Translations under genes and position numbers: made by a program
Origin: the human T2T-CHM13v2.0 reference genome, Homo sapiens
Direction: 5' to 3' (one strand)
Assembly: GCF_009914755.1 (NCBI RefSeq)
Contig: NC_060925.1
DNA length: 64,000 nt
Shown here: piece by piece, positions 15,046 through 32,814 of the stretch
Layout of the letters: every line of letters starts with the position of its first letter
Position numbering within the stretch: position 1 is the first letter of the stretch
Notes under the pieces: generated by a model
What the model was told of the DNA's origin: nothing
Database searches by the model: none
Seen by the model: the letters and a program-made list of their open reading frames with translations, nothing else

Positions 15046-16080
<1,035 letters not shown>

Positions 16081-16689
16081 GATAAAACAATTTTAAGAAA
16101 TACAAATCCACATTCACTTATTACAAATAGATTCAATGCATCTGAGAATAGCATCAAATATGGACTTAATTTAAAAATATATATAGTTCTTAGTTTTCTT
16201 CTTTGTCCCCTGCGACAGAAAAACTCAAGATACCAAGCAGTTTGACTGGAGTGGTAGGACATGCAGAATGACTGGGAAGGGGCTCCAAATGTGTGCTCTA
16301 TTCTGGAAGTAATTAAAAATCCAGGAAGTACTTACATATATGAGCTCAGCTGGACAGTTAGGCCCCAAGTTTGGGGGAGGTCAATTCATGCGGAGGATGT
16401 GGAGGATGACCTTGTCTTGCTTCACAGAGATACCCTCTAGAGAAAAAATGGAAAACAAATGTCTGAGTCTCATCTATGTGCACTGTGTGATGGATTTCTG
16501 AATGTGAAATACTGGGACCACCCAGAAAATTTTATATTTGAGAAGATCAGAAATTCTAGAAGAAAGAATTCTCTGGTCATCCGGCCAGTAAGCATTCGAT
16601 GAACACTTGTTTGGGCCACAACACTGAACTAGGAGCAGCAAAAGACATGAGAGACACCAAAAGCATGGACCCCAGGGTGAGAACCTTTA

Positions 16690-17950
16690 TGTTTCACTCA
16701 TGCAGCCTTTATGAAGCACCTGTTATGTGTCAGACACTATTCTGGGCATTGGAATGAAGCAGTAAACCAGGATAGAGGAGGCCCCTGCTCCCATGAAGTT
16801 TCAATCCTAATGGAGATGATATAGGAGTTAAAAATGAATTATTTAGGCAGATAGTGAAGGTAAGGAAGTCCTCAGTAAGGTTTTCCTTTTAATGAAAAGC
16901 AGCCCCCAAATCATTTTCTTTTCTAACAAAGAGCAGCCTGTAAAATTGAGCTGCAGACATAGAAAGGCCGACTAGAAGCTTGCACAGGTGAGTGCCGGCA
17001 GTTATGCCAACAGGCTACCTGGGGCTAGGCATGTCTAACATGGCGGCTCCATCTTCCCTTTTCCTTTCCAGCCATGTGTGCAGTAGGGAGCAGACAACAT
17101 GGCACTGGCCAAGTGGAAAGCCCATTTGCATAATAAGATTAGAGTGGGGTGGCCAGTGTCCCCTCCTGCTATGTAAACCTCACACTTGGTCCAACCAATC
17201 TGTGGGCCATATGTAAATCAGACACCGTCTCCTCAAGCCTGTCTATAAAATCCGGTGCACTCCAGTGCACTCTGCTGCAGGCCGGAAGTCCCATTTGGGC
17301 ACCCCTTACTCTCCTGCAAGAGAAAGAGCTGTTCTCCTTTCTTTCTTTTGCCTATTAAGCCTCTGCTCCTAAATCCACTTCTTGTGTCTGCATCCTCAAC
17401 TCCCTTGGTGTGAGATGACGAACCCCGGGTATTTACAATGATGCCACTTCAGAGAGAGATGAAAAACAAGCAAAAAAAAAAAAAAAAAAAAAAGCTAATT
17501 AAAACATATGTAGGCTAATTTTCAGAGAATGAAGGAAATGAAGGAGAGTAATGAGATAGAGTGGGGCTAGGAACTGGGGTTGTTTTAAATCTGGGGATCA
17601 GGGAAGGGCCCTGAGACCTGAATAATGAGAAGAGGCCACCAGGTGAAGCTCTAGGGGGAACGTATTTTAGTACAGACGCCCTGAGGAATGTTTGAGGATC
17701 ACAGAGAGGGAGGCAGCAGTATGGTTAGAGAGTGAGAATGAGGTGAGGGAGGAGGGCAAGGGCCAGACCATCTTAGCCTGTGGACCAGGGAAGAAGTTGG
17801 TTTCATTCAAAGCCTAACAACAAGCCTCTGCAGGGTTTTAAGCAGGAGAGTAATATGAGCTGATTGAAACAGCAAAAGCCCACGCCAGCTGCTTTGTGAG
17901 GAATGGAGCCGCAGTGGAAGCTACCAGCAGGGAGGCTGGTTAGGATTGCA
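16690..17950 (-). mobile_element. L2 fragments (host of MER50 and MER4 insertions; continue after 19670)
   Basis: GCACCTGTTATGTGTCAGACACTATTCTGGGC; GGTTTTAAGCAGGAGAGTAATATGA. Confidence 0.65.
16817..17451 (+). mobile_element. ERV1 solo LTR (MER50-like)
   Basis: TGATATAGGAGTTAA..TTAGGCAGATAGTGA...GCCACTTCA; TATAAAA at ~17245; 4-bp TSD GAGA. Confidence 0.8.
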
Positions 17951-18041
17951 GTCTAAACCAAAAGTAGAATTCTAAGGCCCCACTGACCATCTGAACAGAT
18001 CCTCCTCTTGGCCAAGTGCATTCCAAAGTTAGCCTACATAC

Positions 18042-18248
18042 AGGCTCACTCCTCTAATCCCGTTCCCGGAACCAAGCCGGGTCTGGCTGCGTTTTCTCAT
18101 GGCCCAATAACAAAAAGCAGATAAACTAGGAATTATTGCTGTAACTGGATACAGAGAGAAGGTCGGAGATAATTCCACCAGACCAACTCAAAATGTTACA
18201 ATTTTCTTAATGCTTATATAGGTAGGGGTTATATGCCTACGTGTAGTA
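18042..18248 (-). repeat. Inverted copy of 15861-16068 (LTR 3' end plus Alu junction)
   Basis: Manual alignment, about 16 differences in 208 nt. Confidence 0.95.
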
Positions 18249-18252
18249 TGGC

Positions 18253-18807
18253 AAAATTAGCCTACATATATTTTAATTAGCTTTTTTTTTTTTTTTTTTT
18301 TTTGCTTATTTTTCATCTCTCTCTGAAGTGGCATCATTATCTGGGGTAAATACCCAGGGTTCGGGGCCGGGCGCGGTGGCTCACGCCTGTAATCCCAGCA
18401 CTTTGGGAGGCCGAGGCGGGCGGATCACGAGGTCAGGAGATCGAGACCATCCCGGCTAAAACGGTGAAACCCCGTCTCTACTAAAAATACAAAAAATTAG
18501 CCGGGCGTAGTGGCGGGCACCTGTAGTCCCAGCTACTTGGGAGGCTGAGGCAGGAGAATGGCGTGACCCGGGAGGCGGAGCTTGCAGTGAGCCGAGATCC
18601 CGCCACTGCACTCCAGCCTGGGCGACAGAGCGAGACTCCGTCTCAAAAAAAAAAAAAAAAAAAATACCCAGGGTTCGTTGTCTCACACCAAGGGAGTTGA
18701 GGACGCAGACACAAGAAGCTGATTTAGGAGCAGAGGCTTAATAGGCAAAACAAAGAAAGGAGAACAGCTCTCTCTCTTGCAGGAGAGTGAGGGGTGCCCA
18801 AATGGGA
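18253..18807 (-). repeat. Inverted copy of 17289-17522 (MER50 3' end plus flank), split by AluYa5
   Basis: Manual alignment, about 11 substitutions and one 7-nt indel in ~235 nt. Confidence 0.95.
18365..18661 (+). mobile_element. AluYa5, full length
   Basis: All five diagnostics: ATCCCGGCTAAAACGG (two), GGCGTAGTGG, CTACTTGGGA, GATCCCGCC; 16-bp TSD AAATACCCAGGGTTCG (18348-18363, 18662-18677). Confidence 0.95.
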
Positions 18808-19225
18808 TCCCATGACGGGGGAGGGGGTCAGACATGCTTCATTATACCCTCCTCTCTTTTGGAATTCAGGAAAAGCTGATCAGCATTAACATCAACACAG
18901 ACCTTAAGTCTGATAAGAAACATTTACAATCTATTCTCTCTGAAGCCTCCTACCTGGAGGTTTCATCTGCATAATAAAACTTTGGTTTCCACAACCCCTT
19001 ATCATCATAACCCAGACATTCCTTTCTATTGATTCCAGGTCTTTAAATAATAACTTAACTCTTTCAACCGAATGCCAATCAGAAAATTTCTAAATCTACC
19101 TATAACCTGGAGGCCCCATCCTCACCCCTTCTAGTTGTCCCACCTTTCAGAACTGAACCAATGTACATCTTACATATATTTGATTGATGTCTAATATATC
19201 CCTAAAATGTATAGAACTAGGCTGT

Positions 19226-19535
19226 GGCCCAGTGCAGTTGTTCAAACCTGTAATCCTGGCACTTTGGGAGGCTGAGGCAGGAGGATCGCTCAAGCTCAGG
19301 AGCTAGAGACCAGCCTGGGCAATGTGGTGAAACCCCATCTCTACAAAAAACACAAAAATTAGCTAGGTGTGGTGGTGCGTGCCTGTAGTCCCAGCTACTC
19401 TGGAGGCTTAGGTGGGAGGATTGCTTGAGTCTGGTAGGTTGAGGCTGCAGTGAGCGATATCACACCACTGCACTCCAGCCAGGGCAACAGAGTGAGACCC
19501 TGTCTCAAAAACCAAACAAACAAACAAACAAACCA
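19226..19535 (+). mobile_element. AluJ in MER4
   Basis: Dimer, (CAAA)n tail, TSD AAC(T/C)AGGCTGT. Confidence 0.9.
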
Positions 19536-21369: not shown

Positions 21370-22120
21370 GTGGTGGTATTAGTATTAGCATGGATGATAC
21401 TTATTTCCATATCTTGGTAGAGGGCCCTGCCAAATAGAGCCATTTACAACCAGTCCTTTCAATTCATGTAACAGTCTTCGTCTCTAATAAAGAACTTGAT
21501 TGTATGTGGTTGGCGTTTTAGCAGAAAGAAGATTGAGATGATCTGTTTATAATTATGGAATTTTTAGTAGGTTTGCAGTGACCAGGATTGATTTAGTCCA
21601 ATTACCTCATTTTATGATTAAGAAAACTGAAGCCTAGAAATGTGATGTGATTTGGCAGAGGACACATATCTATATAGCACCCAAGCCAGTATAGAAACCT
21701 TGTCTTCTAAGGTTATTTCTTGAAAGTTTATTTCTTCTAAGGTTATTGCTTGAAAAAGAAATTCTAGTGCAACAGAACAAGTTGGAGTTAGGATTTTTAC
21801 CTTTGGAGTAAACTGAAGTCTTGAGAATGTTTCCCCCATTTTGCTTATTTGGTCCTACAGTCTAATAACATCAAATTTCATTACCTTCTTCCCTTCCTAA
21901 TCACAACTCCTCTTCCAATCATCTCGCCTGCTTTAAGTCCAAACATATTTTCAAGAGGAAATGTCAGACAAGAAGATTCAGGAATCAGGAGGGGAAAAAG
22001 ATGAACACAAGATACCTCTCTCCTTCTTCAACTCGATTCAGAACACTTAGTGTTCACTTCCTATTTAACTCTGGAGAGGTTATGCAGCAACTCAGAGAGG
22101 CTGAAAAATATGAAACTCTA

Positions 22121-22644: not shown

Positions 22645-22931
22645 AGCAACTTATTATTATTATTTTTTGAAAAAGCAATTCTAGTGCAACAAAACAAGTT
22701 GGAGTTAGGATTTTTACGTTTGGAGTAAACTGAAGGCTTAAATACCATATCAGTTAGGATGCTTTCAGCTGCAAGTAACTTAATAGCTGAATAACATGGC
22801 TAAAACAGTAAGGGATTTGTTATGTCATATAATGAGAACATTAAAGTTAGAGAATTCAGGGTAGTTCAACAAATTCAAGGAGCCTGGAGTGTCTTCTCAG
22901 GAATTCTGTTGGCAGCAGCTCCCAGGGTAAT

Positions 22932-32080: not shown

Positions 32081-32814
32081 TGTACACCGAAAATAAAACA
32101 CTAAGCTCTCAGCTGGCTGATGGACCCTCTCTTCAGCCAAGGGCATTCCAAAATTAGCCTGAAAAACTATTCAGGCCATGATGGGAGGTGGGGGACATGC
32201 CTCATTGTACCTTCCTCCTGTTGGAATTCAGGCACAGCTGACCAGCATTAACATTAAAACAGAGACCTTAAAACTGAGAAAACAGACTCTTTAAGTCTGA
32301 CACGAAACATTTACAATCTATTCTCTCTGAAGCCTGCCATCTGAAGGTTTCAACTGCATAAGAACTGTGGTCTCCACAGCTCCTTATCTTAAGTCTGATA
32401 TGAAACATTTACAACCTATTCTCTCTGAAGCCTGCTACCTGGAGGTTTCATCTGCATAAGAACTGTGGTCTCCACAGCTCCTTATCTTAAGCCAGATACT
32501 TCTTTTATTGATTCCAGGTCTTTATATAAACTTTTTCAACCAATTGCCAGAAAACCTTTGAATCTACCTGTGACCTGAAAGCAGGCCCCTGCCCCATCTC
32601 ATCTTCCTGAACTGAACCAATGTACAGCTTACATGTATTGATTGATGTCTTATGTCCCCCTAAGATGTATAAAACCAAGCTGTAGGCCAACCACCTTGGG
32701 CACATGTTCTCAGGATCTCCTGGGGCTGTGTCATGGGCCATTATGGGTCACTCATATTTGGCTCAGAACATATCTCTTCAAATAGTTTACAGAGTTTGGC
32801 CCTTTTTGTCAACA
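32081..32814 (+). mobile_element. MER4-family solo LTR with 98-bp internal tandem duplication
   Basis: TGTACACCGAAAATAAAA...TTTTGTCAACA; TSD GTAT/GCAT. Confidence 0.88.

What the first reader, a model, noticed from the sequence alone, without database searches (positions are those of the whole stretch)
18029..18813. Fossil multi-template inverted insertion inside a MER4 LTR, copied from two local donors
Seen: the MER4 LTR breaks after TTCCAAAGTTAGCCT and resumes at CCATGACGGG. The intact MER4 at 32 kb has about 14 nt (GAAAAACTATTCAGG) here, and they are missing. The insert has three parts. (i) ACATA, completing TTAGCCTACATA, which is the rc of 17508-17519 and shares 7-nt microhomology TTAGCCT with the host. 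(ii) The rc of 15861-16068 (~92% identical). (iii) The rc of 17289-17522 (~95%). It ends in the perfect palindrome ATGGGATCCCAT (18802-18813). Both copies cross a locus-specific junction (LTR/Alu and MER50/flank), so they were copied from this locus and are not independent transpositions. Inference: serial template switching (FoSTeS/MMBIR or Pol-theta-type repair) fixed in the primate germ line tens of millions of years ago. Repeat annotation would hide it as unrelated LTR fragments. Alternative: segment (ii) was inserted later, duplicating TTAGCCTACATA (18029, 18257).
Basis: partly seen in the sequence, partly recalled or inferred. Interest (0 to 1): 0.8.

Follow-up and report, generated by a model that had tools for sequence, protein, structure and literature searches.

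The report
Old patch copied from nearby DNA
A retroviral LTR remnant in a gene-free stretch of human chromosome 1 was once broken and patched with backwards copies of two DNA stretches lying 0.5 and 2 kb upstream, a well-preserved but ordinary example of a known kind of DNA-repair scar.

Summary
The host solo LTR (17954-18035 and 18810-~19231) lacks 15-16 nt that 29 of 29 family copies keep. In their place is a 460-nt insert, later enlarged by a young Alu. The insert reads ACATA, then C, then rc(15857-16068) with 18 mismatches in 211, then rc(17289-17522) with 11 in 233, then TC.

A search of the whole human assembly shows the local donors are the best matches: 92% against at most 86%, and 94% against at most 84%. 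They are also the only matches that span the locus-specific junctions. Donor and copy share a derived deletion. Polarised differences split 10 to 10 between copy and donor, so the roughly 6.5% divergence reflects age. From recalled divergence figures I place that age near the ape/Old World monkey split.

The segment order is not collinear with the genome, which rules out a simple inverted duplication followed by deletion.

Best reading (0.6): one break or stalled-fork repair with serial template switching (MMBIR/FoSTeS-like or synthesis-dependent MMEJ). Main rival (0.2): two separate events. No primate orthologs were available, so single versus double origin stays inferred.

This is a new instance of a known kind, with no gene or annotated regulatory element involved. 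Interest is low to moderate.

The parts
15078..15331 (-). Left part of an antisense Alu that was split by insertion of LTR-A
   Evidence: Aligns to Alu positions 279->30; the right part, 16048-16078, aligns to positions 34->4. The 4-5 nt overlap is the target duplication.
15332..16049 (+). LTR-A, a solo LTR inserted into that Alu. Its 3' end is part of donor A.
   Evidence: 6 of 6 family copies lose similarity at the LTR end, where the Alu resumes. The genome holds many copies at 78-86% identity.
15857..16068 (+). Donor A: the template of segment ii. It consists of the last ~190 nt of LTR-A plus ~20 nt of the Alu remnant.
   Evidence: 18 of 211 mismatches to 18042-18252 in reverse complement. 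It is the best genomic match and the only one that covers the Alu part. It shares a ~9-10 nt deletion with the copy that 6 of 6 family copies lack.
17289..17522 (+). Donor B: the template of segment iii. It consists of the 3' part of a second LTR-type repeat (to ~17451) plus ~70 nt of unique flank, including an A22 run (17472-17493).
   Evidence: 11 of 233 mismatches to the copy. LTR part: 94% locally against at most 84% elsewhere. The flank matches nothing else in the genome apart from poly-A hits. The donor continues into family sequence on its left and unique DNA on its right.
17954..18035 (+).
   Evidence: 28 of 29 family copies align from 17945-17955 to 18029-18035. Aligns to the 32-kb copy at 32123-32160.
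18029..18035 (+). Junction 1 microhomology: TTAGCCT, shared by the host LTR and rc(donor B). 10 of 11 nt match if AAAG/AAAA is included.
   Evidence: Caveat: the G at 18032 is found in 0 of 29 other family copies, so the ancestral exact overlap may have been only TTA.
18036..18040 (+). ACATA: a short first copy from donor B, rc(17507-17511)
   Evidence: It extends the match to rc(donor B) to 12 nt. Five random filler bases would match 1 time in 1024 (sequence).
18041..18041 (+). A single C that matches neither template
   Evidence: Donor B would give T and donor A would give G.
18042..18252 (-). Segment ii: inverted copy of donor A
18253..18363 (-). Segment iii, first part: inverted copy of 17419-17522 (flank, T22 run, LTR end). 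It keeps 7 nt (ATCTGGG) that donor B has since lost.
   Evidence: 3 of 104 mismatches and one 7-nt gap. 4 of 4 family copies have the 7 nt.
18364..18664 (+). Young Alu inserted later into segment iii. Target duplication at 18349-18363 and 18663-18677.
   Evidence: Perfect 13-15-nt duplication and a pure A20 tail. 23 CpG, against 0-20 in 14 other Alus of the window.
18678..18807 (-). Segment iii, second part: inverted copy of 17289-17418
   Evidence: 8 of 129 mismatches. 94% local against at most 84% elsewhere.
18808..18809 (+). TC: two bases that come from neither the host LTR nor the continuation of donor B. They complete the palindrome ATGGGATCCCAT (18802-18813).
   Evidence: 22 of 29 family copies read GG before CCATGA. 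Donor B would give CT. Palindrome count.
18810..19231 (+). Host solo LTR, right arm
   Evidence: Aligns to 32176-32689 at 74-77.5%. The family alignment resumes at CCATGA.

Best explanation
A double-strand break or stalled fork inside the host solo LTR was repaired by copying instead of simple rejoining.

Proposed sequence of steps:
1. A free 3' end paired by microhomology (TTAGCCT, or TTA within a 9-10 of 11 match) with the + strand of sequence 0.5 kb upstream (donor B).
2. Synthesis then switched template at least three times: 5-9 nt on B, 211 nt on donor A 2 kb upstream, 234 nt on B again, then back to the host LTR.
3. The host lost 15-16 nt. One or two bases at two of the junctions are untemplated.

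Both templates are the same strand of one 1.7-kb stretch, so both copies are inverted. The donors stayed intact. The product became fixed in the primate germ line. Both arms have since drifted equally, to about 6.5% apart, and a young Alu landed in one arm.

Shown: the copies, their local origin, the direction of copying, the target deletion, the junction sequences and the old age.
Inferred: that it was one event, the order and direction of the switches, whether the template was DNA or RNA, and the pathway (MMBIR/FoSTeS-like, or synthesis-dependent microhomology-mediated end joining).
For: Local origin:
- The local donors are the top genomic matches after self: 92% against at most 86% in 38 other scored hits, and 94% against at most 84%.
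- Only the local donor covers the Alu portion of segment ii (query positions 14-33).
- The unique flank of donor B matches only its copy.
- The LTR/Alu junction is locus-specific, because LTR-A sits inside a split Alu.
- Donor A and copy share a ~9-10-nt deletion absent from 6 of 6 family copies.

Direction of copying:
- The donors continue into family or unique sequence on both sides; the copies are truncated on both sides.
- The copy keeps 7 nt that donor B has since lost.

Target deletion: 29 of 29 family copies keep the segment that the host lacks.

Templating at junction 1: a 12-nt match to rc(B), of which 5 nt cannot come from the host.

Against a simple inverted duplication plus deletion: the order rc(A) then rc(B) is not collinear on either strand (coordinates).

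For a single event:
- The first 16-mer has G at 18028, like 26 of 29 host-family copies. The second has A, like donor B. This is expected if the second 16-mer was copied from B. It needs an extra coincident substitution if the second were a duplicate of the first.
- Segment ii is not younger than segment iii.

For age and not copying error: 10 copy-derived against 10 donor-derived changes, with 3 ambiguous.

Known precedent: multi-template inverted insertions with microhomology or 'microhomeology', described as accumulating as germline variants over evolution (PMC8421209, passages read); iterative template switches (PMC5120786, passages read).
Against: - No orthologous primate sequence could be examined, so the claim of a single event rests on one nucleotide position and a non-significant divergence comparison (p = 0.12).
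- Junctions 2 and 3 show 0-1 nt of microhomology. The idea that A and B are homeologous at their switch point is at chance level: 4261 of 5000 shuffles reach the observed score.
- The templates lie 0.5-2.2 kb away. This is much further than the 100 bp or less used to define MMB-TIs in PMC8421209. The copied tracts (211 and 234 nt) are, from recall, longer than typical polymerase-theta insertions.
- The host G at 18032 is absent from 29 of 29 other family copies, so the true microhomology may have been only 3 nt.
- Donor and copy both carry a pure 22-nt A/T run of equal length. This is unexpected after tens of millions of years and remains unexplained.
Confidence: 0.6

Rival explanations
1. Two separate events. 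First, rc(donor B) was copied into the broken LTR through the TTAGCCT microhomology. Later, a second template switch or insertion placed rc(donor A) 5 nt inside that junction and returned 16 nt behind its departure point. This duplicated AAA(G/A)TTAGCCTACATA (18025-18040 and 18253-18268).
For: A 16-nt direct repeat with one mismatch flanks segment ii exactly. This is the footprint expected of a staggered-cut insertion, or of a switch-and-return that lands behind the departure point. That case is allowed by the four-point model (PMC5453318, passages read).
Against: - The single mismatch between the two 16-mers falls exactly where the host family (G in 26 of 29) and donor B (A) differ. A duplicated junction would need a later substitution that happens to recreate this pattern.
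- Segment ii is more diverged from its donor than segment iii, not less (8.5% against 4.7%, p = 0.12).
- Two independent repairs 5 nt apart, both copying inverted sequence from the same 1.7-kb upstream stretch, is a coincidence.
Confidence: 0.2
2. Capture of free fragments at a break by end joining. Two pieces of DNA or cDNA from the neighbouring region, possibly from a small circle joining 17522 to 15857, or from reverse-transcribed local RNA, were ligated into a break. This would resemble class 2 templated sequence insertion polymorphisms.
For: - The features described for class 2 TSIPs are present: no target duplication of the host, a microdeletion (15-16 nt), microhomology, and 1-2 untemplated bases (PMC5110952, passages read).
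- A circle joining the end of B to the start of A would give the observed order rc(A)-rc(B) without a separate switch.
Against: - ACATA at junction 1 extends the host/donor B match to 12 nt, which shows priming on B and not blunt capture.
- Class 2 donors are described as distant and transcribed. Here both are within 2.2 kb.
- No evidence of transcription was examined.
Confidence: 0.1
3. L1-mediated insertion of segment ii (class 1 TSIP or chimeric retrocopy), with the 16-mer as its target-site duplication.
For: The repeat begins with AAAA and is 16 nt long, within the usual L1 range (range recalled; sequence).
Against: There is no poly-A tail between segment ii and the second 16-mer, and no AATAAA/ATTAAA in the last 40 nt of segment ii. 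PMC5110952 lists both as class 1 features. The G/A argument given for the two-event rival applies here as well.
Confidence: 0.03
4. Not a copying event: independent insertions of LTR family members, a chance match, or an assembly artefact.
For: Both segments contain LTR-family sequence that is abundant in the genome (413 and 496 first-look candidates).
Against: - The copies include non-family sequence (Alu remnant, unique flank) and donor-specific indels.
- E-values are 1e-59 to 1e-83.
- The arms are 5-8% diverged, with balanced derived changes and a later Alu insertion. A mis-assembly would not produce that.
Confidence: 0.02

Closest known systems
MMBIR-linked templated insertions (MMB-TI; Osia et al. 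2021, PMC8421209; passages read)
   Same: Inverted copies of nearby sequence are inserted at a break or stalled fork. Donors remain intact. Junctions show microhomology or one-mismatch 'microhomeology'. Complex cases have several consecutive switches. The paper states that such events can persist as germline or evolutionary variants when no gene is hit.
   Different: That class is operationally defined by templates within 100 bp and by insert sizes from 10 bp up to read length. Here the templates are 0.5 and 2.2 kb away and the tracts are 211 and 234 nt. Two of the four junctions show 0-1 nt of microhomology.
FoSTeS/MMBIR complex genomic rearrangements with iterative template switches (Gu et al. 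2016, PMC5120786; passages read)
   Same: Iterative switches, templated insertions at junctions, a deletion at the insertion site, inverted segments, and junctions that can be blunt or have 1-7 nt of homology.
   Different: The clinical cases involve kilobase to megabase copy-number gains and often several chromosomes. This event is a 460-nt patch within 3 kb, and it is ancient and fixed.
Short-range template-switch mutations, four-point model (Löytynoja & Goldman 2017, PMC5453318; passages read)
   Same: A stretch is replaced by the reverse complement of nearby sequence, which creates inverted repeats. Studied as evolutionary events in primates.
   Different: That model covers a single switch-and-return at short range. 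The authors state that they do not model long-range switches or multiple successive rounds, which is what is seen here.
Class 2 templated sequence insertion polymorphisms (Onozawa & Aplan 2016, PMC5110952; passages read)
   Same: A patch at a break with a microdeletion, microhomology, a few untemplated bases, no poly-A, no host target duplication, and an intact donor.
   Different: TSIP donors are distant and thought to be RNA-derived. Here there are two local donors from one strand, and templated priming is visible at the junction.
Synthesis-dependent MMEJ / polymerase-theta templated insertions (PMC2943611 and PMC7165422; only the search listing and the start of each abstract were seen)
   Same: The idea that repeated short rounds of templated synthesis create the microhomology that finally lets the two ends anneal. 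The 5-9-nt visit to donor B beside the 7-11-nt host/B overlap fits this.
   Different: From recall, not from a call: these insertions are usually tens of nt copied from within tens of nt of the break.

Membership tests
MMBIR/FoSTeS-type templated insertion (MMB-TI) | The inserted sequence is a copy of a nearby genomic template that remains intact | tested here: met
   Both donors are present and continuous with their surroundings. The copies are the best genome-wide matches to the donors.
MMBIR/FoSTeS-type templated insertion (MMB-TI) | The copy is inverted relative to its template | tested here: met
   Both segments are reverse complements.
MMBIR/FoSTeS-type templated insertion (MMB-TI) | Microhomology or microhomeology at the switch junctions | tested here: inconclusive
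   Junction 1: 7 nt exact (or 3 nt if 18032 was A), and 9-10 of 11 with mismatches. Junctions 2 and 3: 0-1 nt. Junction 4: none directly, or 4 nt (CCAT) only under a U-turn reading.
MMBIR/FoSTeS-type templated insertion (MMB-TI) | Template within 100 bp of the insertion (the operational criterion of MMBSearch, PMC8421209) | tested here: not met
   The templates lie 507-746 nt and 1961-2178 nt upstream of the break at 18035. This is a detection criterion of that tool, not a mechanistic requirement.
MMBIR/FoSTeS-type templated insertion (MMB-TI) | All switches belong to one replication or repair episode | not testable with these tools
   This needs orthologous primate loci. Indirect support comes from the G/A position and the divergences.
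L1-mediated insertion (class 1 TSIP / retrocopy) | Target-site duplication plus a poly-A tail and an upstream polyadenylation signal | tested here: not met
   The whole insert replaces 15-16 nt of host sequence instead of duplicating it. Segment ii has a flanking 16-mer repeat but no poly-A tail and no AATAAA/ATTAAA near its end.
Class 2 TSIP (patch at a double-strand break) | No target duplication or poly-A; microdeletion, microhomology and untemplated bases at the junctions | tested here: met
   15-16-nt deletion, TTAGCCT overlap, and C (18041) and TC (18808-9) that match no template.
Class 2 TSIP (patch at a double-strand break) | Donor is a distant, transcribed region (RNA-derived patch) | tested here: not met
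   The donors are 0.5-2.2 kb away on the same chromosome. Transcription was not testable.
Simple inverted (segmental) duplication | One contiguous block copied in reverse, so internal order is collinear with the source | tested here: not met
   On the minus strand B precedes A, yet the insert has rc(A) before rc(B), and 16069-17288 is absent.

The most novel reading that the evidence does not exclude
The template may have been a single + sense nascent transcript (or one single-stranded stretch) spanning 15.86-17.52 kb. The break end would have sampled it repeatedly: B for 5-9 nt, A for 211 nt, B for 234 nt, then a 2-6-nt U-turn that produced the exact palindrome at the right junction. Sampling would have stopped once a usable microhomology to the other end had been made. 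On this reading the locus is a fossil of kilobase-range, multi-round, possibly RNA-templated, synthesis-dependent end joining in the primate germ line. That range and tract length are well beyond what is described for such repair.
Probability: 0.1. Interest if true: 0.5.

Novelty: new member of a known kind. Interest (0 to 1): 0.3.

Why it matters
This is a clean, fully resolved natural example of serial template switching. It shows that the process can copy 200-nt tracts from templates 0.5-2 kb away, and that the product can be fixed and survive for tens of millions of years.

Ordinary repeat annotation would show only unrelated LTR fragments. Scans for template-switch mutations that look within about 100 bp, or that model a single switch, would miss it.

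It creates a nested pair of 210-230-nt inverted repeats. If primate orthologs confirm its distribution, it would be a near homoplasy-free marker for the branch on which it arose.

It touches no gene and no annotated enhancer or silencer in the hub's table, so no functional consequence is expected.

Tried and rejected
1. Homeology between the continuation of donor A and the start of rc(donor B), as a driver of the A-to-B switch. BLAST alignments of other family copies ran on into 18253-18272, which suggested it. The local alignment score is at chance: 4261 of 5000 shuffles and 2026 of 5000 random window 35-mers reach it. Rejected.

2. TGGC (18249-18252) as untemplated filler, and the C at 18252 as host-derived evidence for a duplicated junction. 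Rejected: 6 of 6 family copies read TAGC, TAAC or CGGC there, so it is the end of segment ii. The present donor (CACC) has changed.

3. Simple inverted duplication plus internal deletion. Rejected because of segment order.

4. Error-prone synthesis as the source of the divergence, which would make the event younger. Not supported: 10 copy-derived against 10 donor-derived changes.

5. Snap-back hairpin of the nascent end (CCCA/TGGG) as the source of TC. The predicted extension does not match the sequence (worked by hand). Rejected.

6. Hairpin-opening (P-nucleotide) origin of the palindrome. It predicts GG before CCATGA, not TC. Rejected by hand.

7. Extension of host/donor B similarity further left (CATTC...). 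No significant inverted match of 17523 onwards to the host LTR was found. Treated as chance.

9. Primate orthologs: no tool holds them. The whole-genome search covers only the human assembly.
Full report
WHAT IS THERE. I read 15700-19300 directly, searched 15-20 kb for repeats, and ran a BLAST of 15.5-19.5 kb against the window. These confirm three inverted matches:
- 15861-16068 with 18042-18248: 92.3% over 208 nt, E 8e-83.
- 17289-17434 with 18662-18807: 93.8% over 146 nt, E 2e-59.
- 17437-17522 with 18253-18338: 98%.
A self-BLAST of the whole window at 88% identity or more finds no other such pairs. The exceptions are two young Alus, one 80-nt direct repeat near 22 kb, and a tandem duplication inside the 32-kb LTR.

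THE HOST ELEMENT. The right arm, 18810-19231, aligns to the LTR copy at 32176-32689 at 74-77.5%. The left arm aligns to 32123-32160. I fetched 29 further copies of this LTR family from the human assembly. Of these, 28 align to the host from 17945-17955 up to 18029-18035 and no further. All 29, and the 32-kb copy, carry a 15-16-nt segment between ...TTA(A/G)CCT and CCATGA that the host lacks. The host LTR is therefore 17954-18035 plus 18810-~19231, with a microdeletion at the break. The two bases before CCATGA are GG in 22 of 29 copies and TC in the host. I could not test the names MER4 and MER50, because no repeat library is available.

ANATOMY OF THE INSERT. From left to right:
- ACATA (18036-18040).
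- One unmatched C (18041).
- rc(15857-16068) at 18042-18252: 18 mismatches in 211, one 1-nt gap.
- rc(17289-17522) at 18253-18363 and 18678-18807: 11 mismatches in 233, one 7-nt gap.
- TC (18808-18809).
A 301-nt Alu (18364-18664) splits the last segment. It has a perfect 13-15-nt target duplication and a pure A20 tail. It keeps 23 CpG, against 0-20 in 14 other Alus of the window, so it is a much later arrival. Without it the insert is 460 nt. TGGC matches what 6 of 6 family copies have there (TAGC, TAAC or CGGC), whereas the present donor reads CACC.

WERE THE SEGMENTS COPIED FROM THIS LOCUS?
- Query 18029-18340: the local donor is the best non-self hit (92%, query 14-220). The other 38 scored hits are 78-86% identical and begin at query 28-40, so they lack the Alu-derived end.
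- Query 18662-18830: the local donor scores 94% and the best other hit 84%.
- Query 17400-17560 (donor B): family similarity stops at about 17451. The next ~70 nt match only the local copy; the other hits there are poly-A runs.
- The LTR/Alu junction in donor A is locus-specific. The antisense Alu at 15078-15331 covers Alu positions 279 to 30 and continues at 16048-16078 with positions 34 to 4. LTR-A was therefore inserted into that Alu with a 4-5-nt target duplication.
- Donor A and its copy share a ~9-10-nt deletion and several substitutions absent from 6 of 6 family copies.
- Direction is clear. Each donor runs on into family sequence or unique DNA on both sides, while each copy is cut off on both sides. 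The copy of B retains 7 nt, present in 4 of 4 family copies, that donor B has since lost.

AGE. Together the arms differ at 29 of 444 aligned positions, or 6.5%. I polarised the differences with family copies as outgroups. This gave 10 changes on the copies, 10 on the donors and 3 ambiguous. There is thus no excess on the copied strand and no sign that sloppy synthesis created the differences. From recall, not from a call, human and macaque orthologous DNA differ by about 6.5%. That places the event roughly at the ape/Old World monkey split, with a wide interval. 'Tens of millions of years' is a fair description. This diverged state, together with the Alu nested in one arm, also argues against an assembly artefact, although I could not inspect long reads.

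JUNCTIONS.
- Junction 1. The host reads ...CCAAAGTTAGCCT and rc(donor B) reads ...GAAAATTAGCCTACATAT. They share TTAGCCT exactly and 10 of 11 positions counting AAA. ACATA then continues the match to B, which gives 12 nt in total. Two caveats come from the family tallies. The G at 18028 is the family-majority state (26 of 29). The G at 18032 occurs in none of the 29 copies, only in the host and the 32-kb copy. The ancestral overlap may therefore have been TTA only, with GCCTACATA (9 nt) copied from B.
- Junction 2 (ACATA/C/AGGCTCAC) and junction 3 (GTAGTATGGC/AAAATTAGCC) have 0-1 nt of overlap.
- Junction 4. Homology to B ends at 18807, TC follows, and the host resumes at CCATGA. This makes the perfect palindrome ATGGGATCCCAT, centred exactly where B ends. 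The window has 16 non-simple 12-nt palindromes in 64 kb. One centred within a base of any of four junctions has a chance of roughly 0.3%, judged after the fact. One possible reading is a short U-turn that copied TCCCAT back from the same spot and gave a 4-nt CCAT overlap with the host. This is speculation. Two hairpin-based alternatives predicted the wrong bases.

ONE EVENT OR TWO? The order rc(A) then rc(B) is not collinear with the genome on either strand. One inverted duplication followed by deletion is therefore excluded.

Three points lean against it:
1. The only difference between the two 16-mers is G against A at the one position where the host family (G) and donor B (A) differ. That is expected if the second 16-mer came from donor B. 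It requires a coincident later substitution if the second was a duplicate of the first.
2. Segment ii is more diverged than segment iii, not less (8.5% against 4.7%, Fisher p = 0.12).
3. Two independent repairs 5 nt apart, both using the same upstream strand, is a coincidence.

None of these is decisive. I put one event at 0.6 and two events at 0.2.

An L1-mediated origin of segment ii fails for lack of a poly-A tail and a polyadenylation signal. Those criteria are from PMC5110952. Capture of free fragments does not explain ACATA.

MECHANISM. Both templates are the + strand of one 1.7-kb stretch just upstream. This fits a nascent or resected 3' end that leaves the minus-strand template and pairs with exposed + strand behind a fork or near a break. 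It then copies away from the break, dissociates and re-pairs several times, and finally returns.

Read from the right end leftwards, the last step would be a short copy on B. That copy creates the 7-11-nt complementarity to the other broken end, which is the logic of synthesis-dependent microhomology-mediated end joining. For that I saw only the listing and the start of the abstract of PMC2943611. Whether the template was DNA or a local transcript cannot be told from the sequence.

COMPARISON WITH THE LITERATURE.
- Osia et al. (PMC8421209; passages) describe inverted templated insertions with microhomology or one-mismatch microhomeology. [quoted passage not shown] Their detection is limited to templates within 100 bp.
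- Gu et al. (PMC5120786; passages) describe iterative template switches with templated insertions, a deletion at the insertion site, and some blunt junctions.
- Löytynoja and Goldman (PMC5453318; passages) model a single short-range switch-and-return. They say explicitly that they leave out long-range and multiple successive switches.
- Class 2 TSIPs (PMC5110952; passages) share the junction features but have distant donors thought to be RNA-derived.

This locus is therefore a longer-range, longer-tract, multi-template and ancient member of a known class. I ran no literature search for this specific locus and make no claim about whether it has been described.

VERDICT. The single-event claim and the pathway remain inferences that primate orthologs would settle. 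There is no gene and no annotated regulatory element within 15-19 kb, according to the hub's table. Interest is low to moderate (0.3).

Noticed in passing
window 18364-18664 (target duplication 18349-18363 and 18663-18677): A very young-looking Alu sits inside segment iii. It has a perfect 13-15-nt target duplication, a pure A20 tail and 23 CpG retained. From memory only, several of its bases resemble the diagnostic positions of the human-specific AluYa5 subfamily. If so, it may be polymorphic or human-specific.
   Followed up: partly
window 17472-17493 and 18282-18303: The A22 run in donor B and the T22 run in its inverted copy are both pure and of equal length. The sequence around them has diverged by 3-6%, with mismatches 12 nt and 4 nt from the run. 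A mononucleotide run this long would be expected to drift in length. Coincidence or a very short gene-conversion tract are the only ideas I have.
   Followed up: no
window 15078-15331, 15332-16049, 16048-16078: LTR-A is a solo LTR inserted into an antisense Alu, with a 4-5-nt target duplication (around TGGGA). The LTR family was therefore still active after that Alu arrived.
   Followed up: partly
window 21743-21822 and 22660-22739: A direct 80-nt repeat at 92.5% identity, about 840 nt apart, with two Alus in between. It could be another small dispersed duplication or templated insertion, this time in direct orientation.
   Followed up: no
   Followed up: no
window 18032 and 32157: Both LTR copies of this family in the window read TTAGCCT, whereas 29 of 29 other genomic copies read TTAACCT or variants with A. 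This could be a shared subfamily state, a parallel change, or, for the host, a base copied from donor B.
   Followed up: partly
window 17427-17428 (donor B) against 18339-18345 (copy): After the duplication, donor B lost 7 nt (ATCTGGG in copy orientation). The copy and 4 of 4 family members keep them.
   Followed up: yes
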